Below are positions 1 through 30,710 of a DNA stretch of 64,000 nucleotides, piece after piece; position 1 is the stretch's first letter, and each line of letters begins with the position of its first letter. A model generated the notes under the pieces. It had not been told where the DNA came from and ran no database searches. It was given only the letters and a program-made list of their open reading frames with translations. The DNA is from Escherichia phage LPEK22. The DNA is taken from sequence record OK283619.1. One strand, 5' to 3'. The position numbers and the translations under genes were made by a program.

Positions 1-3000
1 CCTTCCCCTACGCGTATTGGGGATTCCGTTACTATTTGTGATGCTTATGGGAAATTTGCCACTTACCCATTGACCGTGTCTCCTTCTGGAAATAATTTGT
101 ATGGCTCCACTGAAGACATGGCTATAACAACTGATAACGTATCAGCAACGTTCACTTGGTCTGGACCTGAACAAGGTTGGGTTATCACATCCGGCGTCGG
201 TCTTGGCCAAGGCCGTGTCTACAGTCGTGAAATCTTTACACAAATTTTGGCGTCTGAAACAAGTGCTGTCACTCTCAATACTCCACCAACAATCGTGGAC
301 GTGTATGCTGACGGAAAACGTCTTGCGGAATCCAAATATTCACTAGATGGGAATGTAATCACTTTCAGTCCTTCTTTGCCAGCCAACACAGAACTTCAGG
401 TGATTGAATATACTCCGATTCAATTGGGTAATGGCGGTGGTTCTGGTTCTTCTACGATTACCTGGGTCTATAATGGGGGTTCAGCGATTGGCGGTGAAAC
501 CGAAATCACGTTAGACATCGTTGTTGATGATGTTCCGGCCATTGATATAAACGGAAGTCGCCAGTATAAAAATCTGGGGTTCACATTCGATCCATTAACC
601 AGTAAAATCACTCTTGCGCAAGAACTGGATGCAGAGGATGAAGTTGTTGTAATTATCAATGGAACGCCAAACATCTATAATCAAATTGATTATACTTTGC
701 GGGAAGTGGCTCGTGTAACCAATGTTAAAGATACAGAGGTCGTTTATTTTAGTGTTGGTGCTGTGTTAAGCGGGTATAAAGTTATCTACGATAAAATAAC
801 ACAGAGATCATATTTTATTCCAGAGTTACCGACTGGAACCACGGCAGTCAGCCTTAGTTCTTCGGCTGTGCTTGTACATTCTGCTGGTAGTGTTGATCTG
901 GGCGCATTAGCTGTATCTCGTGAAGAATATGTTACCTTGGCTGGGACATTTGATTCTGGTGCTGTCATCAATACTAAAAATGAATTACTCACCCATACTG
1001 ATGGAAAGTATCGTTGGGATGGTACACTTCCTAAAACTGTAGCTGCTGGCTCAACACCTGCAACAACTGGAGGCGTTGGTTCGGGAGCGTGGTTGAGTGT
1101 TGGTGATGCCACTGCCCGCCAGTGGGTAGCTAATAATTATATCAATAGTAAATTCGAGAAGTTTGGGTCTTTCTTGCAAGGTTCAGTTTTAACCACCAAC
1201 GAGCAAGCTCTTGTTGATTCAAGTGGTCTTTTCTGGGTTAAATATGGTGCTATACAAAGTGGTGGTTATACAGTAGCGCCGGGAACTGTTCCAGACTATC
1301 CCGATTTTTACTGTGTTGGATATTTAACAGATTATGATTGGCAGTCTGTTACAAACTGGGGTGCTGATAACAACTATTCTATCGCAGATAAGATCGGTGT
1401 AGACGCGGTCGATGCTATAAACCTCGCAGGTTATCATGCGGAGAAACGTGCGGAACTATTCGGATCCCAGCAAGTTGTCATGGTTCCTGCTGGCACTTAT
1501 CTGTTGGATAAAACGACTCTTGTGGAAGGCACGGCGCATGGTCTGACTATTTATCGTAATCAGGAAGTTATGATTTTTCTTCGCAACAACGTTACTTTCA
1601 TCGGCGATGGCGACGCAACGTTACTGTATGTTGCCGATGGTGTTGTTGAGCGCAATAAGGAAAACGGGGGCACTAAAGGCTTTGTAGTTTTCGGTGATGG
1701 TATTCGTGAAATTCAGAACGCATATGTCCACGATATGCTAATTGATGAAAATGGTGACAATAACCTTGTCCCGCCATTGAACTGGTCTGGAGCACAAGCT
1801 CATTGTCCAGCAGTAGCTTGTTACGAAGGTAGTAATGGTGTGACTGTTTCTGGAGTTAACGTCAAGAATGCTCCTGGTGCAAACGTAATGGTATTCCAGG
1901 AAGCTCAGGCAGCGTTCAACAGCTACAATACGCGTGTAGAGAATTGCAACTTCTATCGCGTTGCTGACGCTGTGACTGGAAACAGTAACCTAATAGACCA
2001 CTCATCAATAAGAATTCATTCCGATGGCTACGTTATAAATAACGTTAAATGTATCCAGCCAACCATGTCAGACATGTGTACGGTATTTGAGTGTCATGGT
2101 AATGGGATCGTTGATGGATGCATCACCAAAAAAGCTCGCTACCCATTCCTGAAGGCTAACGACGGTGCTACATCGACATCTATAGTCACCTTCACAAATA
2201 ACGTCTGTGAGGACGCAGGTAGTGCTTTGGTTCTGGATACCGTACCTAACGTTACAACTGTTGCCAGATTTATTGGTAATACTGTAACGCTACGATCAGA
2301 AAAGCAAGTTATCGGGTATCCTAATACTGCGGCATTCACAACACAGCAGCCGTCTGTTTTGTCATCTGACCCAACCACTATTAATGCAATTATTTACTCT
2401 GCAAATAATAACATATTGCAAAAAAACAGAGCCGCAGATTGGACAACTGAACAAAAAGCTGCAAACGTTGCTTATGACCTGGACTATTTCAAAGAAGTTG
2501 TTAGTGAAAATAACACTTTCTCAGGTTTTTGGGGGTGTGTTCGCTTGGGTAAACAAAAAACAGGTGCTACTTTCAACAGCAATGACTCTTTTGTCTCTTG
2601 CGGGACCAACGGTTCACCTCAATTATCAGACAACACAGCCATAAGGTTTACCAATAAATTTGCCAACGATTATCTTGTTCACCTTGATGAAATGCATATT
2701 AAATGGAATATGACAAAATGTCAGTTTGGTGGTGTCCTGGGTTTATTGCAACAAGCAGCAGGAGTGACTGTTGGTGTTGTGCAATTCACTGCTGATATTA
2801 AAACAGATAGATGGATGCATCCAGCGCTTGGGATAGCTCCACTATCCGTACAGGATTACTACTTCAACATTGATGTATACAGTGATGTGAATACCAGTGA
2901 ACCTTTATACGGATACGCTGGTATTCATGGGCAAATTAATGTTGACTCGCCAACTCAACCATATGTTAAACAATTTTACAAATACAAACCAAACACCCAG

Positions 3001-3168
3001 AATGGATGGTGGTTTAAAGGCATTTTAGCAACTGACACAACTTCTGTTCCTGACAGGCCTTTTGGTAATGCGTCTGGTGACAGATATGATGTTATTGCTG
3101 GGGCATCAAATATTTTCGGGTATCGACATAATGGTACAACATGGGATGCAATGAAATTTACATCATAG
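1..3168 (+). CDS. Tailspike protein, 5'-partial (reading frame open to window start; track start at 70 is a TTG). Long N-terminal extension, then the shared anchor module, then a C-terminal domain.
   Basis: Frame has no stop from nt 1. Residues about 236-370 (VKDTEVVYFSVG...YRWDGTLPK...GAWLSVGDA) are about 70 percent identical to the N-termini of the ORFs at 3272 and 8300. Beta-helix or depolymerase fold of the C-terminal part is assumed, not shown. Confidence 0.75.
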   Translation, partial: PSPTRIGDSVTICDAYGKFATYPLTVSPSGNNLYGSTEDMAITTDNVSATFTWSGPEQGWVITSGVGLGQGRVYSREIFTQILASETSAVTLNTPPTIVDVYADGKRLAESKYSLDGNVITFSPSLPANTELQVIEYTPIQLGNGGGSGSSTITWVYNGGSAIGGETEITLDIVVDDVPAIDINGSRQYKNLGFTFDPLTSKITLAQELDAEDEVVVIINGTPNIYNQIDYTLREVARVTNVKDTEVVYFSVGAVLSGYKVIYDKITQRSYFIPELPTGTTAVSLSSSAVLVHSAGSVDLGALAVSREEYVTLAGTFDSGAVINTKNELLTHTDGKYRWDGTLPKTVAAGSTPATTGGVGSGAWLSVGDATARQWVANNYINSKFEKFGSFLQGSVLTTNEQALVDSSGLFWVKYGAIQSGGYTVAPGTVPDYPDFYCVGYLTDYDWQSVTNWGADNNYSIADKIGVDAVDAINLAGYHAEKRAELFGSQQVVMVPAGTYLLDKTTLVEGTAHGLTIYRNQEVMIFLRNNVTFIGDGDATLLYVADGVVERNKENGGTKGFVVFGDGIREIQNAYVHDMLIDENGDNNLVPPLNWSGAQAHCPAVACYEGSNGVTVSGVNVKNAPGANVMVFQEAQAAFNSYNTRVENCNFYRVADAVTGNSNLIDHSSIRIHSDGYVINNVKCIQPTMSDMCTVFECHGNGIVDGCITKKARYPFLKANDGATSTSIVTFTNNVCEDAGSALVLDTVPNVTTVARFIGNTVTLRSEKQVIGYPNTAAFTTQQPSVLSSDPTTINAIIYSANNNILQKNRAADWTTEQKAANVAYDLDYFKEVVSENNTFSGFWGCVRLGKQKTGATFNSNDSFVSCGTNGSPQLSDNTAIRFTNKFANDYLVHLDEMHIKWNMTKCQFGGVLGLLQQAAGVTVGVVQFTADIKTDRWMHPALGIAPLSVQDYYFNIDVYSDVNTSEPLYGYAGIHGQINVDSPTQPYVKQFYKYKPNTQNGWWFKGILATDTTSVPDRPFGNASGDRYDVIAGASNIFGYRHNGTTWDAMKFTS

Positions 3169-3170
3169 TA

Positions 3171-3198
3171 AAAACCCCGCTTCGGCGGGGTTCTTATT
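3171..3198 (+). terminator. Rho-independent terminator after the first tailspike gene
   Basis: ccccgcttcggcgggg hairpin plus ttcttatt. Confidence 0.75.
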
Positions 3199-3231
3199 AT
3201 ATCCATGTTTATAAAATTTTGTTAATTCAGA

Positions 3232-3238
3232 CTAAATA
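3232..3238 (+). promoter_or_regulatory. Late-promoter-like motif CTAAATA(cc) upstream of a tailspike gene
   Basis: T4 late promoters are TATAAATA. The variant [C/T]TAAATAcc recurs upstream of many late genes in this window. Confidence 0.45.
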
Positions 3239-3271
3239 CCCCATATTGGTCATCCTTTATGGGGTATTATC

Positions 3272-5368
3272 ATGATTTCTCAATTCAATCAACCACGCGG
3301 CTCCACTTCCATAGAAGTTAACAAACAATCTATCGCTCGAAATTTCGGTGTCAAAGAAGACGAAGTCATTTATTTCACTGTCGGTATTGATCTCAGCGGA
3401 TTTAAAGTAATTTATGATGAGTCTACCCAACGGGCTTATTCTCTTCCTTCAGGTATTGTTTCAGGAACGACTGCGATAAGTCTGAACGAACAAGCCATCC
3501 TTACTCATTCTTCTGGCTCTGTTGATCTCGGGGAATTAGCAGTAAGCCGCGAAGAATATGTGACTTTACCTGGTTCTTTTAATTTCGGCCATACTATTAA
3601 TGTGAAAAATGAACTTCTTGTTCACGATGATGAAAAATATCGATGGGATGGTGCATTACCTAAAGTTGTTCCTGCTGGTTCAACTCCAGCATCAACTGGT
3701 GGCGTTGGTTTAGGTGCTTGGGTTAGTGTTGGTGATGCTGCATTTAGGCAGGAAGCTAATAAGAAATTCAAATATTCAGTAAAGTTATCTGATTATTCTA
3801 CATTACAGGATGCAGCGACAGCAGCCGTAGATGGATTGCTTATTGATGTTGACTACACTTTTACTGCAGATGAGAATGTAGATTTTAGCGGTAAAGTTTT
3901 AATCATTGAATGCAAAGGAAAATTCATTGGCGATGGTATGTTGGTTTGGAATGGTTTGGGTGCGGGCTCAGTAATTAAGAAACCGCACATGCATACTAAA
4001 ACTACGCCGTATACTGTTTACCGATTCGATGCAAACGGTAATTGGGTTACAGACCCAACACAAGTTCTGGCATCTGTTCAGCAGCGTTTGGATGTTGGAT
4101 ATAAGCCAAATATTAACGATTTAGATATTTGGGACGACCTTCCTGATAATGTAAAAAATCAGGTTGCTGGTGCTACTTTGCGAATAATGAGCGGCGATAA
4201 TATCATCGTAGAGAACCCAGAAGCTACATTTGGTGGTTATCTATTTACTTTATGTAATAGGATTCTTGTTAAGAATCCACGCAATTTTATTGCTTTGGAA
4301 TCGGGCATTACATTTGAGAACCATCATACAACTGCATGGGGTACTGGCAACTGGGTTGTTGGGGGTGAGATAAAATATGGCTCTGGTTCCGCTGTACTGT
4401 TCATTCGCAATGATGGTGGTACAGACCATGATGGTGGAGTAAGGGATTTAATCTCATACCGTGTTGGAGAATCAGGTATTAAAACCTATCAGAACGAAAT
4501 TGGAGGTCGTTCAGCCAGGAACTACCGTTTAGTGTTCGACAATATAACTACAATCCAGTGTTACTATGATGGTATTGATGTTAATGCTGACACAGGGTCG
4601 CCAACTGAACGTGTGGATGACTACTCACTCGCAGAGTATCCATGGTTCCACCTACCTACTCAACATATCATCCGTAATATTATTACTCGTGATTGTATGG
4701 GGATTGGTGCTTGGTGGGATGGTCAGAAAAATATTATTGATAATGTTGTTACTTATGAGGCCCATAAGGAAGGCGTCTTCGATAGGGGTACTAACAATGA
4801 TATTACTAACATTACTGTAGTAGGTGCGAATAAGGATTTAACTAACCTAAATCAGCTTACCTGTGAGGGAGGTAGTAGACTTCGTGGTATTAACATCCAT
4901 GCATATACTACACAAGGTTACGCTATATACGCTCCGTCTTCAGAAGTAAGTAATGTTTCCTGTGCTGGTTCCGGTACTAAGAAATTACTATGTACCTATA
5001 TAAGCGATATTCAGGGAGGTAATATCAATGTTCAGCATAGTGCCAACCAAATGACACTTGCAATGCAACCTGCTATGGGTGGTACTACAAACCCATCTTT
5101 GCTTATGACGGCAGATTGCCAGGTTGCTACACCAGGGGGTGAGGCAAGTATTGTCAAGCTTTCGGCAATTCAGGAGGGTGTACGTGTAGGTGAGTTTCAG
5201 CTTAACCGCTTAGGCTTTAAGCATATGAGTATACCTGCTGCCCCTTTACAATTACCAGAGAGCGCTCTGGAACATAATTCATCTATAGGATTCTTCTTCG
5301 GAAGTGACGGAGCATTGAGGTTGCTTGCTAAAAAACCAGATGGAAGTTATGTAACATACACACTTTAA
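3272..5368 (+). CDS. Tailspike protein (698 aa) with N-terminal shared anchor module
   Basis: ATG start. N-terminal 150 aa (VKEDEVIYFTVG...YRWDGALPKVVPAGSTPASTGGVGLGAWVSVGDA) matches the module in the other tailspikes. Preceded by terminator and late-promoter-like motif. Confidence 0.8.
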   Translation: MISQFNQPRGSTSIEVNKQSIARNFGVKEDEVIYFTVGIDLSGFKVIYDESTQRAYSLPSGIVSGTTAISLNEQAILTHSSGSVDLGELAVSREEYVTLPGSFNFGHTINVKNELLVHDDEKYRWDGALPKVVPAGSTPASTGGVGLGAWVSVGDAAFRQEANKKFKYSVKLSDYSTLQDAATAAVDGLLIDVDYTFTADENVDFSGKVLIIECKGKFIGDGMLVWNGLGAGSVIKKPHMHTKTTPYTVYRFDANGNWVTDPTQVLASVQQRLDVGYKPNINDLDIWDDLPDNVKNQVAGATLRIMSGDNIIVENPEATFGGYLFTLCNRILVKNPRNFIALESGITFENHHTTAWGTGNWVVGGEIKYGSGSAVLFIRNDGGTDHDGGVRDLISYRVGESGIKTYQNEIGGRSARNYRLVFDNITTIQCYYDGIDVNADTGSPTERVDDYSLAEYPWFHLPTQHIIRNIITRDCMGIGAWWDGQKNIIDNVVTYEAHKEGVFDRGTNNDITNITVVGANKDLTNLNQLTCEGGSRLRGINIHAYTTQGYAIYAPSSEVSNVSCAGSGTKKLLCTYISDIQGGNINVQHSANQMTLAMQPAMGGTTNPSLLMTADCQVATPGGEASIVKLSAIQEGVRVGEFQLNRLGFKHMSIPAAPLQLPESALEHNSSIGFFFGSDGALRLLAKKPDGSYVTYTL

Positions 5369-5380
5369 TTTATCTTGAGC

Positions 5381-5409
5381 AAAAACCCCGCTTTGGCGGG
5401 GTTCTTATT
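5381..5409 (+). terminator. Rho-independent terminator after the second tailspike gene
   Basis: ccccgctttggcgggg hairpin plus ttcttatt. Confidence 0.75.
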
Positions 5410-5441
5410 ATACCTTTGTTCATAAATTTTATTAGTTCAGA

Positions 5442-5448
5442 CTAAATA
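5442..5448 (+). promoter_or_regulatory. Late-promoter-like motif CTAAATA(cc)
   Basis: Same motif, upstream of the third tailspike gene. Confidence 0.45.
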
Positions 5449-5483
5449 CCCCATATTGGCAAATCCTTATGGGGTATTTTCAA

Positions 5484-8249
5484 ATGACCAGAAATGTAGA
5501 AGAATTATTCGGCGGCGTAATCACAGCTCCCCACCAGATTCCTTTCACGTATAAATCAAATGTCGGTGGAGAAACTTTCCTTTCTTTGCCGTTCCATCCC
5601 GTCACTGGTGTTATCACAATCAACGGTGGTATGCAAGTTCCGTTAGACAACTTTGAAATCGAAGGAAATACATTGAATCTCGGACGCGCATTGTCCAAAG
5701 GCGATGTTGTGTATTGCTTATTCGATAAAATTCTTTCGCCAGAAGATACAGCCAAAGGTATCCGCATATACAAATTTCAGGCCGTAGGAGGTGAAACCGA
5801 GTTCACTCCTGATTTCACATCTTATGGAGTCCAATCTCTTTATATCGGTGGCGAGTACAAAACCCCCGAAATTGAATATTCCTATGACAGTACGACAGGA
5901 AAAGTATCTTTGCAAACTGCACTGACTGCAGGCGTTTGGGTAGTCGCTGAAATGTCTGTTAAACAACCGAATATCAGTCCGGCGTTTGACCGAAGTATTC
6001 AAGAAATCGCCCGTTCTGCTAATGTAAAAGACTCTGAAGTCATCGTTAGTACGGACACCATATCTTTGTTGGATGGGAAGAAAGTTGTTTATGACATAGC
6101 GGCGCAAACCAGTTATGGTTTACCAACCATTCCTGATGGTTCTGTCATTTCTTCTGTATCTGCTGGGAAATTGAATTACAATCCAGGTGATGTGCAGGTT
6201 GATTTGTTGCCTTTAGAAGATTCATTTATTAATGTGATAAACACTCTGGGGCGAAATGATGGTGCCAAGTATATTGGAGAATGCCATTCTGTTGCTGATC
6301 TCAGGAATACTGAACCCACTATGGATGGACAACGCATTATTCTTAAGCAACACACTGCGGGTACTCTTCTTGGTGGAGGGGTATTCCGTGCGTTAATTGA
6401 TGGTACAGGAAAGACTGATAATAACGGTACTGTGATCAAAACTGTTGGCGGCGCAGCATGGTTACGTGTTAATGCTGATAGAGTTAACCCATTCATGTTT
6501 GGTGCTTTGGGTGGTTCTAATGATGATACTATTCCAGTACAATCTTGTGTGGATAGTGGTAAGGCCACACAATTAACTGGTGTACATTACGTTAGCAATA
6601 TCCAGTTAAAATATAATACGTCGTCTATTTATGGGTCTGGATTACATTACTCAAGGTTGCATCAGTTGCCTTCTGCTACTGGGAATTGTATTACCATAAA
6701 AGATACATGCTCCCTTATTGTATTAGACGCCTTTGGGGTATATGGCACAGGTGCACAACAAGGCACGTCATTTACTGCGGGCACAACAGGTATCTATGTA
6801 GAAACTCCTTCAGGTCTCTCAGCCGATTATCCGTTCCACACTACCGCAGACCCAAGACGGGACTTGTGTATTTCTAAGGTCCATATAGCAGGTTTTGATG
6901 AATATGGGTTAAATATTGATAGTGGTAACTTTAGTGTTACTACAGATTCTCTTTTAGTCAACCACATCAATCAGGTGGGTGTCCGTTGTGCTACTACTGA
7001 TTGGACTTGGACAAATATCCAGGTTAATACCTGCGGTAAACAATGTCTAGTTCTTGATGGTTGTGGTAATGGTCGTATTATTGGCGGTAAATTCATTTGG
7101 GCTAACTGGCAACCTTATGGTACAGTAGGACAGTTCCCAGGCATTACTATTAATAACAGCCAGAATATGGTTATTAATGGTATTGAGGTACAAGATTGTG
7201 GCGGGAATGGTATTGAGATTAGCGAGTCATATTCAATTTCCATGAACGGATTGAACACCAATCGTAACGGCATCAATGCTAACAACACTTTCTACAACAT
7301 CGTATTTAACAAAAGTGATGCAGTTATCAACGGATTCGTAGGACTCAATTATGCCGCGAATAGTGGTTCAGGTGCTAACTCTAGTGCAGGCAATTTTCAG
7401 TTCCTGTCTAATGATTGTAGTGTCACCATTAATGGTGTGGTTGAGACTGGTTATATGGGCATTAACTTTATTGGTGATAACAATATTATCAACCCCACCA
7501 ATTCCGACCTGAGCATTAACGGATTGGTTAATTATTCCAAGACTGGTTTGCAAACCATGAACGAGACCCCTACATTTGATGGTGTTAGCACTACACCTGT
7601 TTATGTAAGTGTCCCATCTTCTGTAGGGCAAGTAAATGGTCTGAGACTATCACAAGCCAACAAAGATAAATTACTGTATTCAAGAACAGCAGGTCCAGAA
7701 GGTATTACCATGGCTGCTGTTGTAGTACCCACCATATCTGGAGCTGAAGTATTTAACTTCATGGCCATTGGTTCAGGGTTTAGTGATACATCCAACAGTC
7801 TTCATCTTCAATTAGTTATAGACGCTTCTGGAAAACAAACAATTGCTTTGCTATTGGGGGGCGATGGTACAACCCAAATTTTATCTGGGGATTTACCTAA
7901 CGACCTTAAACTACAAAGTGGTGTACCATATCATATAGCTATTGGTGCTAAACCTGGATATTTCTGGTGGAGTATTCTTAATATTCAGACGGGTAAGAGA
8001 ATCAGACGGTCATTCCGAGGCGCTTATTTAGCCGTACCATTTAATTCTATATTCGGATTAACTTCTTCATTAACATTCTTCTCGGATAGCAATGCTGGTG
8101 GGGATGCTTGTTCTGGGGTGGGCGCTAAAGTGTATGTTGGTATGTTCTCTTCCGAGAACGATTATGTAGCTTCACGATACTACAATCTGATTAATCCGGT
8201 AGACCCTACTAAGTTAATTAGTTACCGTATATTGGATTCTTCTATTTAA
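5484..8249 (+). CDS. Tailspike protein (about 921 aa) with N-terminal extension and a diverged anchor module
   Basis: ATG at 5484 preferred over the in-frame ATG at 5469, which lies inside the upstream hairpin. Residues about 180-250 (ANVKDSEVIV...VVYDIAAQTSYGLP) are a diverged copy of the module. C-terminal domain fold not verified. Confidence 0.7.
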   Translation: MTRNVEELFGGVITAPHQIPFTYKSNVGGETFLSLPFHPVTGVITINGGMQVPLDNFEIEGNTLNLGRALSKGDVVYCLFDKILSPEDTAKGIRIYKFQAVGGETEFTPDFTSYGVQSLYIGGEYKTPEIEYSYDSTTGKVSLQTALTAGVWVVAEMSVKQPNISPAFDRSIQEIARSANVKDSEVIVSTDTISLLDGKKVVYDIAAQTSYGLPTIPDGSVISSVSAGKLNYNPGDVQVDLLPLEDSFINVINTLGRNDGAKYIGECHSVADLRNTEPTMDGQRIILKQHTAGTLLGGGVFRALIDGTGKTDNNGTVIKTVGGAAWLRVNADRVNPFMFGALGGSNDDTIPVQSCVDSGKATQLTGVHYVSNIQLKYNTSSIYGSGLHYSRLHQLPSATGNCITIKDTCSLIVLDAFGVYGTGAQQGTSFTAGTTGIYVETPSGLSADYPFHTTADPRRDLCISKVHIAGFDEYGLNIDSGNFSVTTDSLLVNHINQVGVRCATTDWTWTNIQVNTCGKQCLVLDGCGNGRIIGGKFIWANWQPYGTVGQFPGITINNSQNMVINGIEVQDCGGNGIEISESYSISMNGLNTNRNGINANNTFYNIVFNKSDAVINGFVGLNYAANSGSGANSSAGNFQFLSNDCSVTINGVVETGYMGINFIGDNNIINPTNSDLSINGLVNYSKTGLQTMNETPTFDGVSTTPVYVSVPSSVGQVNGLRLSQANKDKLLYSRTAGPEGITMAAVVVPTISGAEVFNFMAIGSGFSDTSNSLHLQLVIDASGKQTIALLLGGDGTTQILSGDLPNDLKLQSGVPYHIAIGAKPGYFWWSILNIQTGKRIRRSFRGAYLAVPFNSIFGLTSSLTFFSDSNAGGDACSGVGAKVYVGMFSSENDYVASRYYNLINPVDPTKLISYRILDSSI

Positions 8250-8299
8250 AAAATACACCCCTCTTAGGAGGGGCTTACTAGAAAAACAAAGAGGTATGT

Positions 8300-10612
8300 A
8301 TGAACGAGATGTTTAGTCAAGGTGGTAAGGGTTCAACTGGAATCCTAACCAACAAACAAGCAGTAGCTAGACACTTTGGGGTTAAGCAATCTGAGATTGT
8401 TTACTTTTCGGTTGGTGTAGATTTAGGGGGGTATAAAGTTATCTATGACAAGGAAACGCAAAGAGCTTATTCCTTACCTGCTGGTATTGCTTCTGGTACT
8501 ACTGCCGTCAGTCTTAATACTGCTGCTGTACTTGTACATTCAGCAGGTTCTGTAGACTTAGGTGCATTAGCTGTATCTCGTGAAGAATACGTAACCTTAC
8601 CTGGTTCGTTTGATTCTGGCTCTACGCTTAACGTTAAAAATGAATTACTCACTTATACAGATGGTAAGTATCGCTGGGATGGAGCATTACCTAAAGCTGT
8701 CCCTGCCGGTTCAACTCCTGCATCAACTGGTGGTATTGGTCTTGGCGCGTGGGTTAGTGTTGGTGATGCTTCTTTGAGAACACAACTGGCAAACGGCAAT
8801 GGCTCGTTGATTGGAATTCACCCGCAGGGAACGCTAAATAATGTATTAACTGTGCGCACACCTGAACAGTACAATGCGGTAGGCGACGGAATAGATGACG
8901 ATACTTCAAAATTAAAAGAAATGCTTTCAGACATAAACAACGTTCCTGAAACACTTCCTGATGCTGCGGCTGTAAACTCGTACATGGAGCAAGTAGCAGT
9001 AAAAATTAACCTGACCAAGTTATACCGATTCACAGAGACGCTATACATACCCCCAGGTGTTTCAATTGAAATGCCAGCACCAAACTTTTTTACTCGTGAG
9101 TGTAAGCAAGGATTGTTTTATGACCCAGTAGATAAGAATACAGCAGCAATCAGCTTAATGGTGTACCGTAAACAACCTGATGGTTCATACAAACTCAATA
9201 AAGATGTAGATTATTATCCTACTGGGTTAGATATTGATAATGGGTACGCTGTAACATGTGCCAGAAAAATTGATATTAGTAACCTTAACCTGATTACAGC
9301 ACCAGGTGTAAAGGTTGGTGTTAAATGGATAGGTGGGGCAGGTTGCACTACAAAAGGGTTATCTATTGGGGAGAATACAGGGAGCGATATTACAACAGCA
9401 AGACTGCCAAGAGTAGGATTGTTGCAGTCAGCATCATGGGGTTCTGTTCATGAAAATCTACGCATCCTGTATAAAACTCAGGGCGCAGTGTTCATTGACT
9501 CTAATGGCGGTGCTACTGTAAACAATGCTTACATTTCCCGCCTTGGTAATACCAATGGTGAGCTAGAACAAGCGGTGTATAAACCAGCAGGGTTTACTGA
9601 GGTAGGTGATGTTGCCATCACTCAGTTTGCAGGTTCAGAGGTTAAGTTTAATAGCCCAATCATCGAACAAGCATCATTCGACTTTGTTCACGCTGGCCGG
9701 GATACTGATTCCTACGGTTTATTTATGGTTGATAAACCCCACATTGAATCATCTGGTGGGAAGAAAAAACATAGTTTCTACCTGATCAATACCAGTTCAG
9801 ATGTTACGTTGTCAGGGGTAGGTCTTTCCGGACAAGACCCTGATCTAGATAGTATGTACTTCCTTAAAAACTGCCCAGAAACTGCCCGAAATGTTGTCAG
9901 AGGACAAATGCCAGTAGGTGGTTTAAAACTCGTTAGAGGTACTGGTAACTACCCTACATTGGTACTCGACTGTACAAATATGGGAAGTCAATTCCAATTT
10001 GGGGAAGTTGGTGACATTTTCTATATCAAAGATGTTGTTGGTGTAAAAGCAGACACTCTATACATAGATCCTGTAAATGGTAATAACTACAACTGGGGAT
10101 TTAACGGAACCAAACCTATAAGAGAGCTACTTAATATTTCAAAGTTATGCCAGCTATTCAAGTGCAAAAGAGTTTATCTTAACCCAGGTGAGATAGCCAT
10201 TACCTCTAACACGGAGTTGCCGATGGTTAATTTTGAAGGTACTGGTAGCTTGAAGGCAAATTCTGGTAGTAGCTTCCTTATCAAAACCGGTGGGACATTA
10301 TCATTAATTGGGCTTGCTGGTATATCTACAGATGGCGGCCATATGTTTAGAGTCTCCACCACGGAAAAAGTAAACATACATACTAACTGCCCAGTGGATT
10401 CTGGTGCGGCCTATGTTGTACTAAGTGAGATTCAGGGTAATATTGAATACAGGCAATTATTCTATTCTGTAAATTGTTCTAAGTATGTAGGTGCAACAGC
10501 TGGACAAACTATCGCTGGTGTCATGGTTAAGACAGCGTCAAGACCGACAGGAATAGATGCTGATCCAGTTGATGGTAATACTTCTCTAACCTATAAAATT
10601 ATAGGATCATAG
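8300..10612 (+). CDS. Tailspike protein (770 aa) with N-terminal shared anchor module
   Basis: ATG with RBS aaagaggt. N-terminal 150 aa about 75 percent identical to the ORF at 3272. Followed by a strong hairpin plus T-run terminator. Confidence 0.8.
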   Translation: MNEMFSQGGKGSTGILTNKQAVARHFGVKQSEIVYFSVGVDLGGYKVIYDKETQRAYSLPAGIASGTTAVSLNTAAVLVHSAGSVDLGALAVSREEYVTLPGSFDSGSTLNVKNELLTYTDGKYRWDGALPKAVPAGSTPASTGGIGLGAWVSVGDASLRTQLANGNGSLIGIHPQGTLNNVLTVRTPEQYNAVGDGIDDDTSKLKEMLSDINNVPETLPDAAAVNSYMEQVAVKINLTKLYRFTETLYIPPGVSIEMPAPNFFTRECKQGLFYDPVDKNTAAISLMVYRKQPDGSYKLNKDVDYYPTGLDIDNGYAVTCARKIDISNLNLITAPGVKVGVKWIGGAGCTTKGLSIGENTGSDITTARLPRVGLLQSASWGSVHENLRILYKTQGAVFIDSNGGATVNNAYISRLGNTNGELEQAVYKPAGFTEVGDVAITQFAGSEVKFNSPIIEQASFDFVHAGRDTDSYGLFMVDKPHIESSGGKKKHSFYLINTSSDVTLSGVGLSGQDPDLDSMYFLKNCPETARNVVRGQMPVGGLKLVRGTGNYPTLVLDCTNMGSQFQFGEVGDIFYIKDVVGVKADTLYIDPVNGNNYNWGFNGTKPIRELLNISKLCQLFKCKRVYLNPGEIAITSNTELPMVNFEGTGSLKANSGSSFLIKTGGTLSLIGLAGISTDGGHMFRVSTTEKVNIHTNCPVDSGAAYVVLSEIQGNIEYRQLFYSVNCSKYVGATAGQTIAGVMVKTASRPTGIDADPVDGNTSLTYKIIGS

Positions 10613-10613
10613 T

Positions 10614-10644
10614 AAAAACCCCGCTTCGGCGGGGGTTTTATTTC
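10614..10644 (+). terminator. Rho-independent terminator after the fourth tailspike gene
   Basis: ccccgcttcggcggggg hairpin plus ttttatttc. Confidence 0.8.
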
Positions 10645-10666
10645 TATCCTGTTTGTTGGCTGTATA

Positions 10667-10684
10667 CTAAATATCTCTATAAAT
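10667..10684 (+). promoter_or_regulatory. Late-promoter-like motifs (ctaaata and tataaatg) upstream of the 1612-aa gene
   Basis: tactaaatatctctataaatgg. Confidence 0.4.
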
Positions 10685-10705
10685 GGCACTCTATGGAGCA
10701 TCAAA

Positions 10706-13700
10706 ATGCAATCTACAAATTTAAACCGTCGCCCGTATTGGGATGACTGGAATCCTGGGAAACGTTTTTCACGGATTCTTTTTCGTCCGATGCCTATCAA
10801 GGTTCAGACTCGAGAACTGAACCAGATGCAGACTATTCTTCAGGATCAAATTGAAAAACTAGGCAACCATTTGTTCAAAGATGGTTCTATGGTTATCCCT
10901 GGCGGTCTGACGATTACCAATGCCGCAGTCTCTTTGAAATTCACTTTGGCTGGTGGTACTGAATTCACTGATCTGGAAGGTATTTCTGAACTCTACGTTT
11001 TGGGGAAGGACAATAATGCCAAAGCACGTGTGTTGTCTCTTGAACGTGATCTGTCTGCTCCTGATACGATGCTGGCTATCCTTGAGATGACTGAAGCGGG
11101 TAATGCTGACGGATTCCATGTTAACGATAATCTGTATTTCCAGACTTACGACGTGAATGATAATTTCATTCGTATTGGTTATGGTATCGCAGCTGCAGTA
11201 ACTGGTTCTATCGTCGCTCGTATGACGAAAGGCGTTTACTTCATTCGTGGGATGTTCCTAGACGTTGATGACGCAACTCTTATCGTTGATAAAACTTCTA
11301 ACATCACTTCCCACCGCATCGGATTTAAAGTCACCGAAACTATTGTCACCGAAACAGAAGATGAATCCCTTTATTCAAATGCTCAGGGAACGATTAACTC
11401 CAAAGCCCCAGGCGCTCATCGTCTTCGAATAGATCTGGTCTTATCTCGATTTGATTATGACGCCGTGGTTGAAGATTTTGTTGAACTGGCCAAAGTTCGT
11501 GATGGTAAAATCCAGTCTATGGTGACTCAGTCCACCTATAATATTCTGGAAGACACGTTGGCCCAACGGACGTATGAAACCAACGGCGATTACAACGTTT
11601 CAACGCACCAGATCGACATCCGCGAACACCTGAAAGTCAATAACAATGGCGGGGTATTCAATGCCGCTGATGGCGGTGACGAGAGCAAATTTGTTTCTGT
11701 GATGAAACCAGGCATCTCCTATGTTCGCGGTCGACGTATCGAAAATGTCGGGGAAGAACTGGTTATTGTCGACAAGGCGCGGGATACCGATGTCCTGAAT
11801 AACACCCCTGTTGCGGTGGCCACAGGCAATTATCTGGTCACTAAGAATTCTAAAGGTGTGCCAGTGATATCCCGCACCGTTCGATACAAATTACTGAATG
11901 CTTCAGGCGTTACCCAGGCTACAGCACTTTGTATATCAGCTGAACGTAATTCAACAGAATTTCGTCTGTATATGCGCGACCTGGTCGTTACTGGCGATGC
12001 ATCCACTATCACCAAAGTGTCTTACGAAGAAAGCGGTATCACCATGTTCTCTGCTGAACTGGAATCCAATCAGTTTAACCAGAGTTCTATGATAGATCTG
12101 ATCTTCTCTCTTCCGGTATTCGGTGTCAAGACTTTAGCACCAACTGGCTCCGTGGATATCAACTACACTGTTCTCAGAACGTATAAAGTGACGTTGGACA
12201 ACAGCGGCGCGGGTTCTATTTCTGCTCCATTGGGATATAGTTTTTCCCCAGAATTTTCGTTGTACTCTGCAGCGAAATCTGATGGTTCTGAAGCGCAGTT
12301 CGATATCTCTGGTTCTTTGTCTTTGACTGGTTCTCCGGTCGGTTCGGCGCTGCAGATTTCTCTGGGCAGTGGTAATGCTAACCAGTCAATCAATTTGCTG
12401 GCGCTGATGATTCGTACCACGGCCACAATCAAAACGAAGACCATCACTGAAACAACTGAAACAGTGACATTCACCTCGCAGACTAGCCGTCCTTTGGCGA
12501 ATCACGATGGTTGGAAATTGGTGTCGGTCAAAAACGATACTGGCGCAGACGTGACCTCCAGCTTCGTCCTAGATGGCGGACAGCGTGATGCAGGGTATTA
12601 CAAGTCTAACTTGTTATCCAGCGCTGGAGCAATCTCAGGGACGTATACAGTGGTGTATCAATACTTCGCCCACAGTTCCGGTGATTTCTTCTCTGCTGAT
12701 TCGTATACTTCGATGGATTATAAAGATATCCCGAATTATACATCTTCTACATCAGGCGCGGTGTACGGCCTGGCAGATAGTTTGGATTTCCGTCCGAAAA
12801 TCACCAACGGAACTTCTGACACAGATATGGTTCGTCCAAACACTGCAGTTATTCTGGACACAGAATATTATCTGCCGCGTATCGACGCGATTTATCTGGC
12901 AGACAACGGCGTGTTTGGTGTGGCTCGTGGCATCAGTTCTAATAATCTGGCTTCTCCAGCAATCCCAGCGAACGCCATGCGTTTGTATGAATTGTTGATC
13001 CCGCCGTATACACCGAATATTGATGATATCCAAATTCGAACTATTGATAATCGTCGTTATACAATGCGCGATATCGGTAAACTGGAAACCCGTATTTCCA
13101 ATGTTGAATACTATACCTCTCTGTCACAGCTGGAATCTTCAGCGATGACACAGCAAGTGTTCGACCCCATTACGGGTAATCCTCGTTTCAAAAATGGTAT
13201 CGCAGCTGATCCGTTCAAAGACTTCCGGTTGATTGATGACTTGTCTGAAGATTGGATGGGTTCTATCGATACCGAAAACGGACGTCTGCGCCCGTTTGTA
13301 CAACAAAACGTTGTTGACATGACTCCGGTTGGCTGGAACAAAGTGATGGATGGGATGGTGGTTTGTAATTACACGCCTGAAATCTCGGTGAACCAAGAAT
13401 ATGCGACGACGACGATCAACGTTAACCCGTATGCAGTATTCAATTGGGAAGGTTTCTTGAAGATTAACCCGACCACAGACTACTGGTTCGAAAACTATTA
13501 TGTTGCGCCGCGTATTATCAATGAAACGATCAACACCCGTGGTACTGTACAAGAAGGTTCAGTGTACGGAACATGGCGTACTGTTTCTGTTTCTGATCGT
13601 GTTTGGGAACCGCATGGTGCTGGTGGTGTGTGGTGGGGATATCGTTACCGCACGACTGTTTCTGCCCGTGATGTCACCACATATACATACACGGACAAAA

Positions 13701-15544
13701 CAACCACGACCATGACTGGTGAACAGATTGTGGAGACGCAAGTTATCCCATACATGCGCGAGATCGATATTTCTTTCGACGCATCTGGGCTGCGACCTTT
13801 CACTCGTATGTATGCGTTCTTCTCTGGTCGTGACGTCAATCTGTATTGCAAACCGAATGGTGGTAATTTCGGAGACCCAATCACCACTGATGCCAATGGT
13901 GCTGTTAAAGGTGTATTCCGCGTTCCACAGAACGATACAATCAAGTTCAACACAGGCGACAACGTGTTCCGCTTAACGGATAGCCCTGTTGACAGTAAAT
14001 CTGCGGATGATACACTGACCAATGCAGAAATTGTTCATAAATCTTTCGGTAAGAAACAAGGTATTCAAAAGACCTTTGTCAACACTCGTGTCCTGGGTTA
14101 CACTGCTAGTACTCGCACCGAAACTTCTACTTCTGAAGTGGTTGTTGATCAATGGCGTGATCCGATTGCCCAATCGTTTATGGTGGCGACTAAGATTGGC
14201 GGCGAGTATATCGAAGGCGTGGAAGTATTCTTCTCTACCAAGTCACGTGATGTTCCGATCACTCTGGAAATTCGCGAGATGGAGAATGGCTTACCTTCTC
14301 ATACAGTCATTACTCGTAAAACTTTGAACCCGTCTGAAGTGACGATCTCTACAGACTCTTCCGGCGGTACGAAGTTCACCTTTGATTATCCGGTGTATCT
14401 GCAAGCATCGACTGAGTTTGCTATCGTTTTGTTGGCGAATACTCAGGATTACAACGCGTATATCGCGGAAATGGGCAAGAAAAACCTTCTGTCCAACGAA
14501 TATATCGCCAAACAACCGTATACAGGGGTGTTCTTCACTTCTTCAAACGGTTCTACATGGTCTCCAAACCAAATGGCTGATATGAAATTCCGCATATATC
14601 GTTGTAACTTCGCTGCGGGACAGAACGTTGTAACATTTGATCCGAAGCTCGGGCCAAAACAACGTCCGTTGGGATTGAACACTCTGAACTGCGTAAGCGG
14701 GTCTTCTGTTGTGACTGTGTTTGCAACTGGTCATGGTTTGGTTGCTGGGAACAATGTTACTCTTTCTGAATTGACAGGCGGTTGTGGCTTTACTCCTGAA
14801 CAACTTAACAAAACGTTTACTGTGACAGATGCGAGCTATACTTCATTCAAGATTGACGTCGGTACGGCAGCAGACAGCAATGGACAAATCGGTGGAGATA
14901 ATGCTTCTTTCTTGGGCAATTATCTAGTTGATATGTTCTATGCCAGCGTTACCAATTCGGCTCTGGAAGGTTCAATTCTGAAATTGGAATACCGTTATCG
15001 CGATGCCACTTCAAATTCTATGTCTGATTGGGCTGAGTTTGAAACTGACACTGACGTGGCATTGCCGACTGAAGGTATCTATCGCCAGGTCGGGGATTTC
15101 CAAATCCGAGCCACCATGACGCGTAGTGAAAACAACGTGTACACTGCTCCAATGATTGATGGCGATGACCTGAGCGTAATCTTCAACTCATACGGTGTGG
15201 ATCCATTTGAAGATGTCTTCAAATACGTGACAAAGGACATCGGATTTGATAATCCGTGTTCTACTGTGAAGTTGTTCTTTGGTGCAATGCTCCCATCTCA
15301 GTCTTCGATGAAGGTGCAGGTGAAACTTCTACGAGCAGGGCAAGAGATGGATAGTGTGGCTTGGGAAGACGTCACCCCAACTTCGCCTCTGGTTAACGAC
15401 GGTTCCACATTCTTTGAATATGAGTATGACAAGACTGTGGCGAGCAATAACCCGTTTGTTGGCCTGAAAGTCCGAGCGCTTGTACGGGGGAACCGCGTTG
15501 CTCCTCCATCATTCAAAGACTTCCGTCTTATTGCTCTGGCATAA
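10706..15544 (+). CDS. Very large virion-associated structural protein (1612 aa), function unassigned
   Basis: Uninterrupted 4.8-kb ORF, ATG with GGAG RBS, late-promoter-like ctaaata and tataaatg upstream. T/S/N/G-rich fiber-like composition. Sits between the tailspikes and the neck genes. Confidence 0.6.
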   Translation: MQSTNLNRRPYWDDWNPGKRFSRILFRPMPIKVQTRELNQMQTILQDQIEKLGNHLFKDGSMVIPGGLTITNAAVSLKFTLAGGTEFTDLEGISELYVLGKDNNAKARVLSLERDLSAPDTMLAILEMTEAGNADGFHVNDNLYFQTYDVNDNFIRIGYGIAAAVTGSIVARMTKGVYFIRGMFLDVDDATLIVDKTSNITSHRIGFKVTETIVTETEDESLYSNAQGTINSKAPGAHRLRIDLVLSRFDYDAVVEDFVELAKVRDGKIQSMVTQSTYNILEDTLAQRTYETNGDYNVSTHQIDIREHLKVNNNGGVFNAADGGDESKFVSVMKPGISYVRGRRIENVGEELVIVDKARDTDVLNNTPVAVATGNYLVTKNSKGVPVISRTVRYKLLNASGVTQATALCISAERNSTEFRLYMRDLVVTGDASTITKVSYEESGITMFSAELESNQFNQSSMIDLIFSLPVFGVKTLAPTGSVDINYTVLRTYKVTLDNSGAGSISAPLGYSFSPEFSLYSAAKSDGSEAQFDISGSLSLTGSPVGSALQISLGSGNANQSINLLALMIRTTATIKTKTITETTETVTFTSQTSRPLANHDGWKLVSVKNDTGADVTSSFVLDGGQRDAGYYKSNLLSSAGAISGTYTVVYQYFAHSSGDFFSADSYTSMDYKDIPNYTSSTSGAVYGLADSLDFRPKITNGTSDTDMVRPNTAVILDTEYYLPRIDAIYLADNGVFGVARGISSNNLASPAIPANAMRLYELLIPPYTPNIDDIQIRTIDNRRYTMRDIGKLETRISNVEYYTSLSQLESSAMTQQVFDPITGNPRFKNGIAADPFKDFRLIDDLSEDWMGSIDTENGRLRPFVQQNVVDMTPVGWNKVMDGMVVCNYTPEISVNQEYATTTINVNPYAVFNWEGFLKINPTTDYWFENYYVAPRIINETINTRGTVQEGSVYGTWRTVSVSDRVWEPHGAGGVWWGYRYRTTVSARDVTTYTYTDKTTTTMTGEQIVETQVIPYMREIDISFDASGLRPFTRMYAFFSGRDVNLYCKPNGGNFGDPITTDANGAVKGVFRVPQNDTIKFNTGDNVFRLTDSPVDSKSADDTLTNAEIVHKSFGKKQGIQKTFVNTRVLGYTASTRTETSTSEVVVDQWRDPIAQSFMVATKIGGEYIEGVEVFFSTKSRDVPITLEIREMENGLPSHTVITRKTLNPSEVTISTDSSGGTKFTFDYPVYLQASTEFAIVLLANTQDYNAYIAEMGKKNLLSNEYIAKQPYTGVFFTSSNGSTWSPNQMADMKFRIYRCNFAAGQNVVTFDPKLGPKQRPLGLNTLNCVSGSSVVTVFATGHGLVAGNNVTLSELTGGCGFTPEQLNKTFTVTDASYTSFKIDVGTAADSNGQIGGDNASFLGNYLVDMFYASVTNSALEGSILKLEYRYRDATSNSMSDWAEFETDTDVALPTEGIYRQVGDFQIRATMTRSENNVYTAPMIDGDDLSVIFNSYGVDPFEDVFKYVTKDIGFDNPCSTVKLFFGAMLPSQSSMKVQVKLLRAGQEMDSVAWEDVTPTSPLVNDGSTFFEYEYDKTVASNNPFVGLKVRALVRGNRVAPPSFKDFRLIALA

Positions 15545-29739: not shown

Positions 29740-29768
29740 AAACCCCGCTTCGGCGGGGTTTTTCTTTA
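29740..29768 (+). terminator. Rho-independent terminator after the major capsid gene
   Basis: aaccccgcttcggcggggtt hairpin plus tttctttat. Confidence 0.8.
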
Positions 29769-29815
29769 TAGGGATATGTAAGATAATAAAGCCTCATTTA
29801 TCAAAGGAGGTTAAA

Positions 29816-30052
29816 ATGTCTCATCAATTATCTGGCGGTGCAGTCGATACTCTATTCGTTCTTTTCTGGTTTGGACCTCGTGAAGCTGGGGAAATACCTG
29901 CTAAATCTGGAGAAGCCGAATTGGCCTCCCTGGGGTTTTGTAAACGAGTTGATGTTAAAAACGTACCAAAAGGTCGAGATACACATCTGTGTGTACTCAC
30001 CGAGGAAGGTTACAAATACGCATATCTGAAATATGTTTCTCAAAATGCGTGA
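29816..30052 (+). CDS. Hypothetical protein (78 aa)
   Basis: ATG after RBS aaaggagg (track start upstream is an alternative start). Confidence 0.45.
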   Translation: MSHQLSGGAVDTLFVLFWFGPREAGEIPAKSGEAELASLGFCKRVDVKNVPKGRDTHLCVLTEEGYKYAYLKYVSQNA

Positions 30053-30139
30053 TTGTTTATCGTAACGATTTAATACGCGAATAGTTCAATAACAATTCCT
30101 GTTGTACGATATAACTTTCTTACAACAGGAGTATCAGTC

Positions 30140-30454: not shown

Positions 30455-30515
30455 TGTTTTCAATAAATGGGTAATGAACCATCATTACCCAACTTTCACA
30501 ATAGGAATACAACTC

Positions 30516-30710
30516 ATGGCAAAAGAAACTCTTAACAATGAAAACTCCAACTTTGCAGAATGGCATACCGAATTAGAGCGCGTTGCCCGTTCTCAACATG
30601 GTTCTGCCGCTGATGCAGATGCTTGGCGTGAAGATTATGAATCTGGAAAAACTCCACGTCAGGCTTGGGAAGACGAATGGGGGTGGGATGATGCCGACTC
30701 TAATCCGTAA
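30516..30710 (+). CDS. Hypothetical small protein (64 aa)
   Basis: ATG at 30516. The longer track ORF from 30261 overlaps the ORF at 30140 out of frame and is probably not its true start. Confidence 0.3.
   Translation: MAKETLNNENSNFAEWHTELERVARSQHGSAADADAWREDYESGKTPRQAWEDEWGWDDADSNP

What the first reader, a model, noticed from the sequence alone, without database searches (positions are those of the whole stretch)
1..10612. Four tandem tailspike genes sharing one anchor module
Four consecutive large ORFs share a module of about 140 aa (consensus VxYFxVG...YxLPxG...SVDLGxLAVSREEYVTL...YRWDGxLPK...GAWxSVGDA). It is N-terminal in the ORFs at 3272 and 8300, follows an extension of about 235 aa in the first ORF, and is diverged in the ORF at 5484. 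This matches the branched four-tailspike receptor-binding complex of Vi1-like (Ackermannviridae) phages as recalled from the literature. The C-terminal domains are unrelated to each other, suggesting four different glycan specificities. The module DNA copies (roughly 775-1140, 3330-3740, 8370-8770) could serve as recombination substrates for swapping receptor-binding domains.
Basis: partly seen in the sequence, partly recalled or inferred. Interest (0 to 1): 0.55.

Follow-up and report, generated by a model that had tools for sequence, protein, structure and literature searches.

The report
Known Kuttervirus four-tailspike gene cluster

Summary
Window 1-10612 carries tsp4, tsp3, tsp2 and tsp1 of a Kuttervirus. 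It is 99.5-99.7% identical in DNA to phages SFP10, kage, aagejoakim and S117.

The shared module of about 150 aa is the published tailspike "head" (domains D1+D2, also called TD1/TD2). It is 62-72% identical between TSP4, TSP3 and TSP1. TSP2 keeps only D1.

Two corrections:
- tsp4 runs off the left edge of the window and lacks its first 112 codons. The module therefore follows about 345 aa (anchor domain plus XD1-XD3), not 235.
- The true baseplate anchor lies outside the window. The module itself is a docking head, not the anchor.

The receptor-binding domains:
- TSP1, TSP2 and TSP3 match solved structures: CBA120 TSP1 (Salmonella O:21), CBA120 TSP2 (E. coli O157), and a 9NA/P22-type endorhamnosidase (O:4/O:9).

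Homology to related phages breaks at the 3' end of the head module and resumes at the terminator after the gene. This supports cassette swapping, which is already published and shown experimentally.

The receptor of this TSP4 type is still unknown. Its few relatives include Citrobacter prophages.

The parts
1..3168 (+). tsp4 (tailspike 4, subtype TSP4-1). It is 5'-truncated by the window edge: the first 112 codons, with the baseplate anchor domain AD and the start of XD1, lie upstream.
   Evidence: The frame is open from base 1. It is 99.5% identical to S117 TSP4 residues 113-1167. S117 orf165 starts 336 nt before the window.
1..669 (+). TSP4 assembly domains: XD1 (partial, about 1-198), XD2 (about 229-411) and XD3 (about 457-669), with Gly-rich linkers. 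These are the docking platforms for TSP2 (XD2) and TSP1 (XD3).
   Evidence: phmmer matches CBA120 TSP4-N (7REJ residues 113-338) with E 5e-143. There are no gaps against CBA120. Domain limits are taken from PMC8825819 by subtracting 112 residues.
682..1122 (+). TSP4 head module D1+D2 (module copy 1). The GTTAVSL motif is at nt 835-855.
   Evidence: Matches 5W6H residues 5-147. PF18668 covers aa 304-369. DNA repeat at 724-1109. Motif at aa 279.
1126..3165 (+). TSP4 receptor-binding domain. It is predicted to be a right-handed beta-helix depolymerase. Its receptor is unknown.
3167..3271 (+). Intergenic cassette: an intrinsic terminator hairpin (3173-3192 plus a T-run), a late-promoter-like ACTAAATA (3231-3238), and a 5'UTR hairpin (3238-3265).
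   Evidence: Repeat families D3 and D5. Terminator scan. Folds of -19.3 and -16 kcal/mol, z -5.5 and -3.4.
3272..5368 (+). tsp3 (subtype TSP3-1). Head D1+D2 is about 3272-3748 (module copy 2). The receptor-binding domain (3737-5365) is a 9NA/Det7/P22-type endorhamnosidase for Salmonella O:4/O:9.
   Evidence: 100% identical to S117 TSP3. Residues 1-166 match the CBA120 TSP3 head; residues 156-698 match 3RIQ (1071 bits), 2V5I and P22. PF09251 E 6e-106. E400/D433/D436 align with P22 E359/D392/D395.
5378..5483 (+). Second copy of the terminator / ACTAAATA / 5'UTR hairpin cassette, 86-87% identical to the first.
5484..8249 (+). tsp2 (subtype TSP2-1, E. coli O157-specific). XD2+XD3 is about 5484-5987, the D1-only head about 5988-6215, and the neck plus body 6216-8246.
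   Evidence: Matches 6W4Q over its full length (2070 bits). 99.2% identical to CBA120 TSP2. D506, E568 and D571 are conserved. Domain limits come from PMC7506556.
8300..10612 (+). tsp1 (subtype TSP1-1, Salmonella O:21-specific). Head D1+D2 is about 8300-8797 (module copy 3). The rest is the beta-helix body.
   Evidence: Matches 4OJ5 over its full length (1638 bits). 93.5% identical to CBA120 TSP1 and 99.7% to S117 TSP1. E456 and E483 are conserved. PF18668 covers aa 91-156.
10611..10673 (+). Third copy of the terminator hairpin, followed by ACTAAATA (10666-10673) upstream of the VriC-like gene.

Best explanation
The region encodes the branched four-tailspike receptor-binding complex of a Kuttervirus of the SFP10/S117 type.

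Assembly. TSP4 is the hub. Its N-terminal anchor domain, just outside the window, fixes the complex to the baseplate. Its XD2 domain binds the XD2 of TSP2, and its XD3 binds the D1-D2 head of TSP1. The XD3 of TSP2 binds the head of TSP3. It is kept in TSP1, TSP3 and TSP4 and reduced to D1 in TSP2.

Function. Each protein ends in a different trimeric beta-helix glycanase that binds and cleaves one surface polysaccharide: TSP1 Salmonella O:21, TSP2 E. coli O157, TSP3 Salmonella O:4/O:9, and TSP4 a still unidentified glycan. One virion can therefore infect several serotypes.

Evolution. Host range changes by cassette exchange of the receptor-binding domain. The conserved head module gives the 5' homology arm, and the conserved terminator/promoter cassette after the stop codon gives the 3' arm.

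Shown here: identity, domain content, folds and breakpoints. Taken from the literature: physical interactions and receptors. Inferred: the route of recombination.
For: - The region is 99.5-99.7% identical in DNA to SFP10, kage, aagejoakim and S117, with the same gene order.
- The proteins are 99.5-100% identical to S117 TSP1-4.
- Solved-structure matches exist for TSP1, TSP2, the TSP3 head and body, and TSP4 XD1-3 and head.
- PF18668 is found in TSP4, TSP3 and TSP1 but not in TSP2.
- Catalytic residues are conserved in TSP1, TSP2 and TSP3.
- The TSP4 C-terminus is modelled as a tailspike beta-helix.
- Homology to CBA120, S8, GG32 and heyday stops at nt 1109 and resumes at 3169-3175. CBA120 tsp3 homology covers 3175-3748 and resumes at 5381. 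Heyday tsp1 homology stops at 8778.
- Literature: assembly map (PMC8825819, PMC7506556); S117 receptors and the GTTAVSL recombination motif (PMC8432352); experimental tsp swaps and a spontaneous tsp4/tsp5 recombinant (PMC11414711, PMC9965104).
Against: - Nothing contradicts it.
- The anchor domain of TSP4 is not in the window.
- Complex assembly and glycan specificities are inferred from near-identical proteins, not tested on this sequence.
- The TSP4 receptor-binding model has only moderate confidence: pLDDT 67.9, and the last 80 or so residues are below 50.
Confidence: 0.97

Rival explanations
1. The three or four module copies within this one genome are themselves the main recombination substrates. 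Receptor-binding domains would be shuffled between tsp positions inside a single phage.
For: - The copies are direct repeats on the same strand.
- PMC8432352 reports identical receptor-binding domains at TSP1 and TSP4, or TSP3 and TSP4, positions in different Kutterviruses. The junction is at the GTTAVSL motif, which is present here in TSP4 and TSP1 and as GTTAISL in TSP3.
Against: - Paralogous copies are only 65-78% identical. Their longest perfect matches are 14, 21 and 26 nt, and 8-11 nt against tsp2. That is marginal for homologous recombination.
- Direct-repeat recombination within one genome would delete the intervening tsp genes rather than swap domains.
- The breakpoints seen between phages fit exchange between orthologous copies, which are 89-98% identical over 370-1100 nt.
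Confidence: 0.25
2. The TSP4 C-terminal domain is a non-functional passenger. It would be kept only because the TSP4 N-terminus is needed to assemble the complex.
For: - No halo or host was found for S117 TSP4 on 148 strains (PMC8432352).
- S117 with tsp4 replaced still infects all known hosts (PMC11414711).
- Limestonevirus TSP4 naturally lacks a receptor-binding domain (PMC11414711).
Against: - The 680-aa domain is intact and at least 98% identical in 37 Kuttervirus records.
- Compared with relatives on other phage chassis, synonymous sites are saturated (pS 0.75-0.78) while pN is 0.12-0.28. The family is therefore under strong purifying selection.
- Within Kuttervirus, differing codons split 12 synonymous to 8 non-synonymous, and 5 to 6. 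This is more synonymous than neutral expectation, but the counts are small.
- It folds as a complete tailspike beta-helix.
Confidence: 0.12
3. The region belongs to a prophage, tailocin or bacterial polysaccharide-degrading locus rather than to a lytic phage.
For: Tailspike-like beta-helix proteins also occur in prophages. Relatives of the TSP4 domain sit in Citrobacter prophages.
Against: - The whole 64-kb window is collinear with lytic phage S117 at 98-99% identity. It includes the major head protein, portal, terminase, sheath, the gp55-like sigma factor and replication genes.
- There is no match in 5,426 E. coli genomes or in the GTDB representative genomes for the TSP4 domain.
Confidence: 0.01

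Closest known systems
Salmonella phages S117, SFP10, kage and aagejoakim (Kuttervirus SFP10 species): tsp4-tsp3-tsp2-tsp1 cluster, subtypes TSP4-1, TSP3-1, TSP2-1 and TSP1-1
   Same: Same genes, order and intergenic elements. DNA is 99.5-99.7% identical and the proteins 99.5-100% identical.
   Different: Only a handful of substitutions: 5, 0, 4 and 2 aa differences from S117 TSP4, TSP3, TSP2 and TSP1.
Escherichia phage CBA120 TSP1-4 (PDB 4OJ5, 6W4Q/5W6P, 5W6F/6NW9, 5W6H, 7REJ). This is the structural paradigm of the branched complex.
   Same: TSP1 (93.5%) and TSP2 (99.2%) match over their full length. The TSP4 AD/XD1-3 plus head (97.6%) and the TSP3 head (91%) also match. The architecture and assembly logic are identical.
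   Different: The receptor-binding domains of TSP3 and TSP4 are unrelated. CBA120 has O77 and O78 glycanases. Here TSP3 is a 9NA/P22-type endorhamnosidase and TSP4 is an uncharacterised beta-helix.
P22, 9NA and Det7 tailspike endorhamnosidases (Pfam PF09251; PDB 1TSP, 3RIQ, 2V5I)
   Same: The TSP3 body aligns end to end (1071 bits to 3RIQ) and keeps the P22 catalytic residues E359/D392/D395.
   Different: The N-terminal attachment domain is the Kuttervirus D1-D2 head instead of the P22 head-binding domain. Overall identity to P22 is about 34%.
Phage G7C gp66/gp63.1 and phage T4 gp10 (branching adaptor domains)
   Same: The D1-D2 head matches G7C gp63.1 (4QNL, E 1e-48 to 1e-71). The XD domains have the T4 gp10 fold according to PMC8825819.
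   Different: No sequence-level match to T4 gp10 was obtained here. The G7C complex has two branches, not four.
HK620 tailspike (endo-N-acetylglucosaminidase, PDB 2VJI). This is the closest fold to the TSP4 receptor-binding domain.
   Different: Only 12% sequence identity. The catalytic residues and substrate cannot be transferred.

Membership tests
Ackermannviridae (Kuttervirus) branched TSP1-4 receptor-binding complex | Four adjacent tailspike genes in the order tsp4-tsp3-tsp2-tsp1, downstream of the baseplate-wedge genes and followed by the VriC-like gene | tested here: met
   ORF map. Same order as the S117 and CBA120 annotations. The upstream side is outside the window but is collinear in relatives.
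Ackermannviridae (Kuttervirus) branched TSP1-4 receptor-binding complex | TSP4 carries gp10-like XD1, XD2 and XD3 assembly domains upstream of its head | tested here: met
   Matches 7REJ residues 113-338 with E 5e-143. 97.6% identical to CBA120 TSP4 residues 113-486.
Ackermannviridae (Kuttervirus) branched TSP1-4 receptor-binding complex | [quoted passage not shown] | not testable with these tools
   It lies upstream of window position 1. It is present in S117 TSP4, whose residues 113-1167 are 99.5% identical to the window protein.
Ackermannviridae (Kuttervirus) branched TSP1-4 receptor-binding complex | TSP2 has XD2+XD3 and a D1-only head | tested here: met
   Full-length match to 6W4Q. There is no PF18668 (D2) hit. 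Only D1-level similarity to the other heads. PMC7506556.
Ackermannviridae (Kuttervirus) branched TSP1-4 receptor-binding complex | TSP1 and TSP3 start directly with the D1-D2 head that docks on XD3 | tested here: met
   for the domain itself. The docking is taken from PMC8825819 and was not tested here.
Ackermannviridae (Kuttervirus) branched TSP1-4 receptor-binding complex | Each TSP ends in a trimeric beta-helix glycanase domain | tested here: met
Ackermannviridae (Kuttervirus) branched TSP1-4 receptor-binding complex | Physical assembly of the four trimers into one branched complex on the baseplate | not testable with these tools
   Shown for CBA120 by analytical ultracentrifugation and electron microscopy (PMC8825819).
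T4 gp10-like adaptor domains | Detectable homology of the XD domains to T4 gp10 | tested here: inconclusive
P22-type tailspike endorhamnosidase (PF09251) | Full-length match to the family profile and conservation of the catalytic Glu/Asp/Asp | tested here: met
   PF09251 at 355 bits against a cut-off of 25, covering profile positions 2-550 of 552. E400/D433/D436 align with P22 E359/D392/D395.

The most novel reading that the evidence does not exclude
The widespread TSP4-1 receptor-binding domain (nt 1126-3165) has no receptor assigned in the published searches I read. It may target an O-antigen of Citrobacter, or of another commensal enterobacterium missing from the Salmonella and E. coli test panels.

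Its only relatives among 5.8 billion proteins are four metagenomic phage tailspikes, three of which were traced to different chassis, and two prophage remnants in Citrobacter freundii and C. portucalensis. Two of these relatives are followed by an O-antigen-type acyltransferase gene.
Probability: 0.3. Interest if true: 0.3.

Novelty: already known. Interest (0 to 1): 0.08.

Why it matters
It matters little as a discovery. The architecture, structures, three of the four receptors and the modular exchange mechanism are all published for near-identical phages.

It is still useful as an annotation. It identifies the window as an SFP10-species Kuttervirus predicted to infect Salmonella O:4/O:9 and O:21 and E. 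coli O157.

The one question that remains is the receptor of TSP4-1, which is carried by at least 37 sequenced Kutterviruses. The Citrobacter prophage relatives found here give a cheap, testable lead for that question.

Tried and rejected
1. A scan of the GTDB representative genomes for relatives of the TSP4 receptor-binding domain found nothing: 31 pattern hits, none confirmed.
2. A distant blastn search of the same domain against 5,426 complete E. coli genomes gave no match.
3. I tried to infer hosts of the metagenomic relatives from their chassis. The chassis were P22-like (about 79% to Salmonella P22-like phages), HK022-like (6% coverage only) and ECBP5-like. No host could be assigned.
4. 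A literature search for the ACTAAATA late-promoter motif returned only unrelated papers. The promoter reading therefore rests on position, strand bias and the presence of a gp55-like sigma factor.
5. I considered that the first ORF starts at the TTG at position 70, as the ORF tool lists it. I rejected this because the frame is open from base 1 and aligns with S117 TSP4 from residue 113.
6. I considered the ATG at 5469 as the tsp2 start. I rejected it in favour of 5484.
7. A tblastn search for further copies of the head module or the XD domains elsewhere in the 64-kb window found only the three head copies and the one XD region.
Full report
**What is there.** Window 1-10700 holds four consecutive large + strand ORFs, followed by a 1612-aa ORF. 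A megablast search against 50,697 phage records finds 369 matching records. Nineteen cover at least 80% of the query, and fourteen cover all of it at 99.5-99.7% identity; these include Salmonella phages kage, SFP10, aagejoakim, BPS5-7, STP-4, S117, S115 and S118, and Escherichia phage 4HA11. All of these are Kuttervirus, family Ackermannviridae. In the S117 record the four genes are annotated tail spike 4, 3, 2 and 1. They lie downstream of the baseplate-wedge genes and are followed by a 'VriC' protein. CBA120 has the same order, orf213 to orf210. The rest of the 64-kb window is collinear with S117 at 98-99% identity and carries the head, portal, terminase, sheath, replication and gp55-like sigma factor genes. 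The window is therefore a piece of a lytic SFP10-species Kuttervirus.

**Checking the observation.** The shared module is real and far beyond chance. By blastp, TSP4 vs TSP3 is 62% identical over 153 aa (E 4e-54), TSP4 vs TSP1 is 71% over 146 aa (E 4e-60), and TSP3 vs TSP1 is 72% over 162 aa (E 3e-74). A tblastn search of the whole window finds no further copy. Outside the module, no pair of C-terminal regions matches better than E 0.022.

Two details need correcting:
- The first ORF is not complete. The frame is open from base 1, and the protein aligns with residues 113-1167 of the 1167-aa S117 TSP4. That gene starts 336 nt upstream of the window. The module therefore follows about 345 residues, not 235.
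- TSP2 shares only the first half of the module, at 34% identity over 74-118 aa (E 5e-5 to 5e-8). It has no hit to Pfam PF18668, which covers the second half in the other three proteins. [quoted passage not shown]

**What the module is.** It is the tailspike 'head', made of two small fold units called D1 and D2 (TD1 and TD2 in other papers). PDB sequence searches match it to the heads of CBA120 TSP1 (4OJ5), TSP3 (5W6F/6NW9) and TSP4 (5W6H), and to G7C gp63.1 (4QNL). According to PMC8825819, TSP4 consists of a baseplate anchor domain (AD), then XD1, XD2 and XD3, then the head. TSP4 XD2 binds TSP2 XD2, TSP4 XD3 binds the TSP1 head, and TSP3 joins through TSP2 XD3 once TSP4:TSP2 has formed. In the window, TSP4 residues 1-226 match CBA120 TSP4-N (7REJ residues 113-338) with E 5e-143. 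'Anchor module' is therefore only partly apt. The head is a docking element in TSP1 and TSP3 and an internal domain in TSP4 and TSP2. The true anchor lies outside the window.

**The four receptor-binding domains.**
- TSP1 matches CBA120 TSP1 end to end (1638 bits, 93.5% identity) and keeps the catalytic residues E456 and E483.
- TSP2 matches CBA120 TSP2 end to end (2070 bits, 99.2% identity) and keeps D506, E568 and D571.
- The TSP3 body matches the 9NA tailspike (3RIQ, 1071 bits over 543 aa), Det7 and P22. It hits PF09251 at 355 bits. Its E400/D433/D436 align with the P22 catalytic residues E359/D392/D395.
- For the 99.6-100% identical S117 proteins, halo and inhibition assays assigned TSP1 to Salmonella O:21, TSP2 to E. 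coli O157 and TSP3 to Salmonella O:4/O:9 (PMC8432352).

**Recombination.** I compared the window with six relatives by blastn.
- Homology to CBA120, S8, GG32 and heyday runs from nt 1 to exactly 1109, the end of the head. It resumes at 3169-3175, the first bases after the tsp4 stop codon.
- CBA120 tsp3 is homologous only over 3175-3748 (upstream cassette plus head) and resumes at 5381.
- Heyday loses homology in tsp1 at 8778, and BPS3 at 8704.

The receptor-binding domains thus behave as cassettes bounded by the head on the 5' side and by a conserved terminator on the 3' side. Inside this genome, the longest perfect matches between paralogous heads are only 26, 21 and 14 nt. I therefore infer that exchange mostly occurs between orthologous genes of co-infecting phages. 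Rare paralogous exchange is documented in the literature: the same domain is found at TSP1 and TSP4 positions, with the junction at the GTTAVSL motif (PMC8432352). That motif is present here in TSP4 and TSP1, and as GTTAISL in TSP3. Engineered and spontaneous swaps in S117 and SPTD1 confirm that the system tolerates such exchange (PMC11414711, PMC9965104).

**The one open point.** The receptor of S117 TSP4, subtype TSP4-1, was not found on 148 strains and was still unknown in 2024 (PMC8432352, PMC11414711). The domain is intact and at least 98% identical in 37 phage records, all Kuttervirus. A search of 5.8 billion proteins finds only six other clusters:
- a tailspike on a P22-like podovirus, 81% identical, with the PF09008 head-binding domain;
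- a tailspike on a temperate siphovirus whose only hit in the phage collection is a weak one to HK022-like phages (6% coverage, 75% identity), 62% identical, followed by an Acyl_transf_3 gene and an integrase;
- a tailspike on an ECBP5-like podovirus, 61% identical;
- a fourth metagenomic tailspike, 52% identical, whose contig was not examined;
- a frameshifted prophage tailspike next to an acyltransferase in Citrobacter freundii;
- a remnant in C. portucalensis.

Across these chassis, synonymous sites are saturated (pS 0.75-0.78) while pN is 0.12-0.28, so the family is under purifying selection. Within Kuttervirus the few differences lean towards synonymous changes. There is no match in 5,426 E. 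coli genomes or in the GTDB representatives. A functional O-antigen depolymerase for a host outside the tested panels, possibly Citrobacter, is therefore the most economical reading. This is a lead, not a result.

**Verdict.** Everything essential is already published for near-identical phages, so novelty is nil and interest is low.

Noticed in passing
window 3167-3271, 5378-5483, 10611-10673: A repeated intergenic cassette of about 105 nt follows tsp4 and tsp3, and part of it follows tsp1. It holds a strong terminator hairpin (AAAAACCCCGCTTCGGCGGGGTT plus a T-run, -19.3 kcal/mol, z -5.5), then ACTAAATA, then an 8-bp 5'UTR hairpin (ACCCCATA...TATGGGGT) that ends 7-10 nt before the start codon. 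Before tsp1 (8250-8299) there is only a weaker hairpin and no ACTAAATA, so tsp1 may be co-transcribed with tsp2. The terminator copy is also the 3' breakpoint of receptor-binding-domain swaps.
   Followed up: partly
window 3231, 5441, 10666, 17181, 21431, 26214, 27432 (+ strand): ACTAAATA occurs 7 times on the + strand and never on the - strand, against about 2 expected per strand. Each copy lies about 25-55 nt upstream of the start codon of a + strand gene in the tail and head gene region (tsp3, tsp2, the VriC-like gene and others). The phage encodes a T4 gp55-like late sigma factor, so this is probably the late-promoter element, a variant of the T4 TATAAATA. The literature search did not confirm this.
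   Followed up: partly
window 1126-3165; loci L003, L004, L012, L013, L014: The TSP4-1 receptor-binding domain family is very small, with 7 protein clusters. It sits on at least four different phage chassis and in two Citrobacter prophage remnants. In two cases it is followed by an Acyl_transf_3 (O-antigen acetylase-like) gene. This is a possible clue to the unknown TSP4 receptor.
   Followed up: partly
window 29767-31394, 46823-49006, 52494-52767: These three stretches do not align, or align poorly, with S117, although the surrounding sequence is 98-99% identical. The two larger stretches, whose ORFs were listed, contain only small ORFs (60-240 aa) of unknown function, and they look like variable accessory-gene islands. 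The first lies just after the major head protein gene.
   Followed up: no
window 10706-15544: A 1612-aa ORF lies directly after tsp1. It is annotated 'virulence-associated VriC protein' in S117, and its only Pfam hit is DUF4815 (207 bits). It is a large conserved virion-associated protein of unclear role next to the tailspike cluster.
   Followed up: no
hit H20/H43 (MN871475.1), matching window 1-10700: A record named 'Pseudomonas phage Pa-sanjiao', with host given as P. aeruginosa PAO1, is 99.3% identical over 80% of this tailspike region, and its TSP4 receptor-binding domain is 100% identical. The host label of that record looks doubtful for a Kuttervirus that carries at least the TSP4-1 receptor-binding domain.
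   Followed up: no
locus L005 (Salmonella phage rabagast, MT074469.1), matching window 771-10700: The rabagast record (143 kb instead of about 157 kb) lacks the AD-XD1-3 part of tsp4. Homology starts inside the head at nt 771, directly after a truncated upstream gene. Its tsp1 is split into fragments. This is either a real deletion variant, which should not be able to anchor the complex, or an assembly artefact.
   Followed up: no
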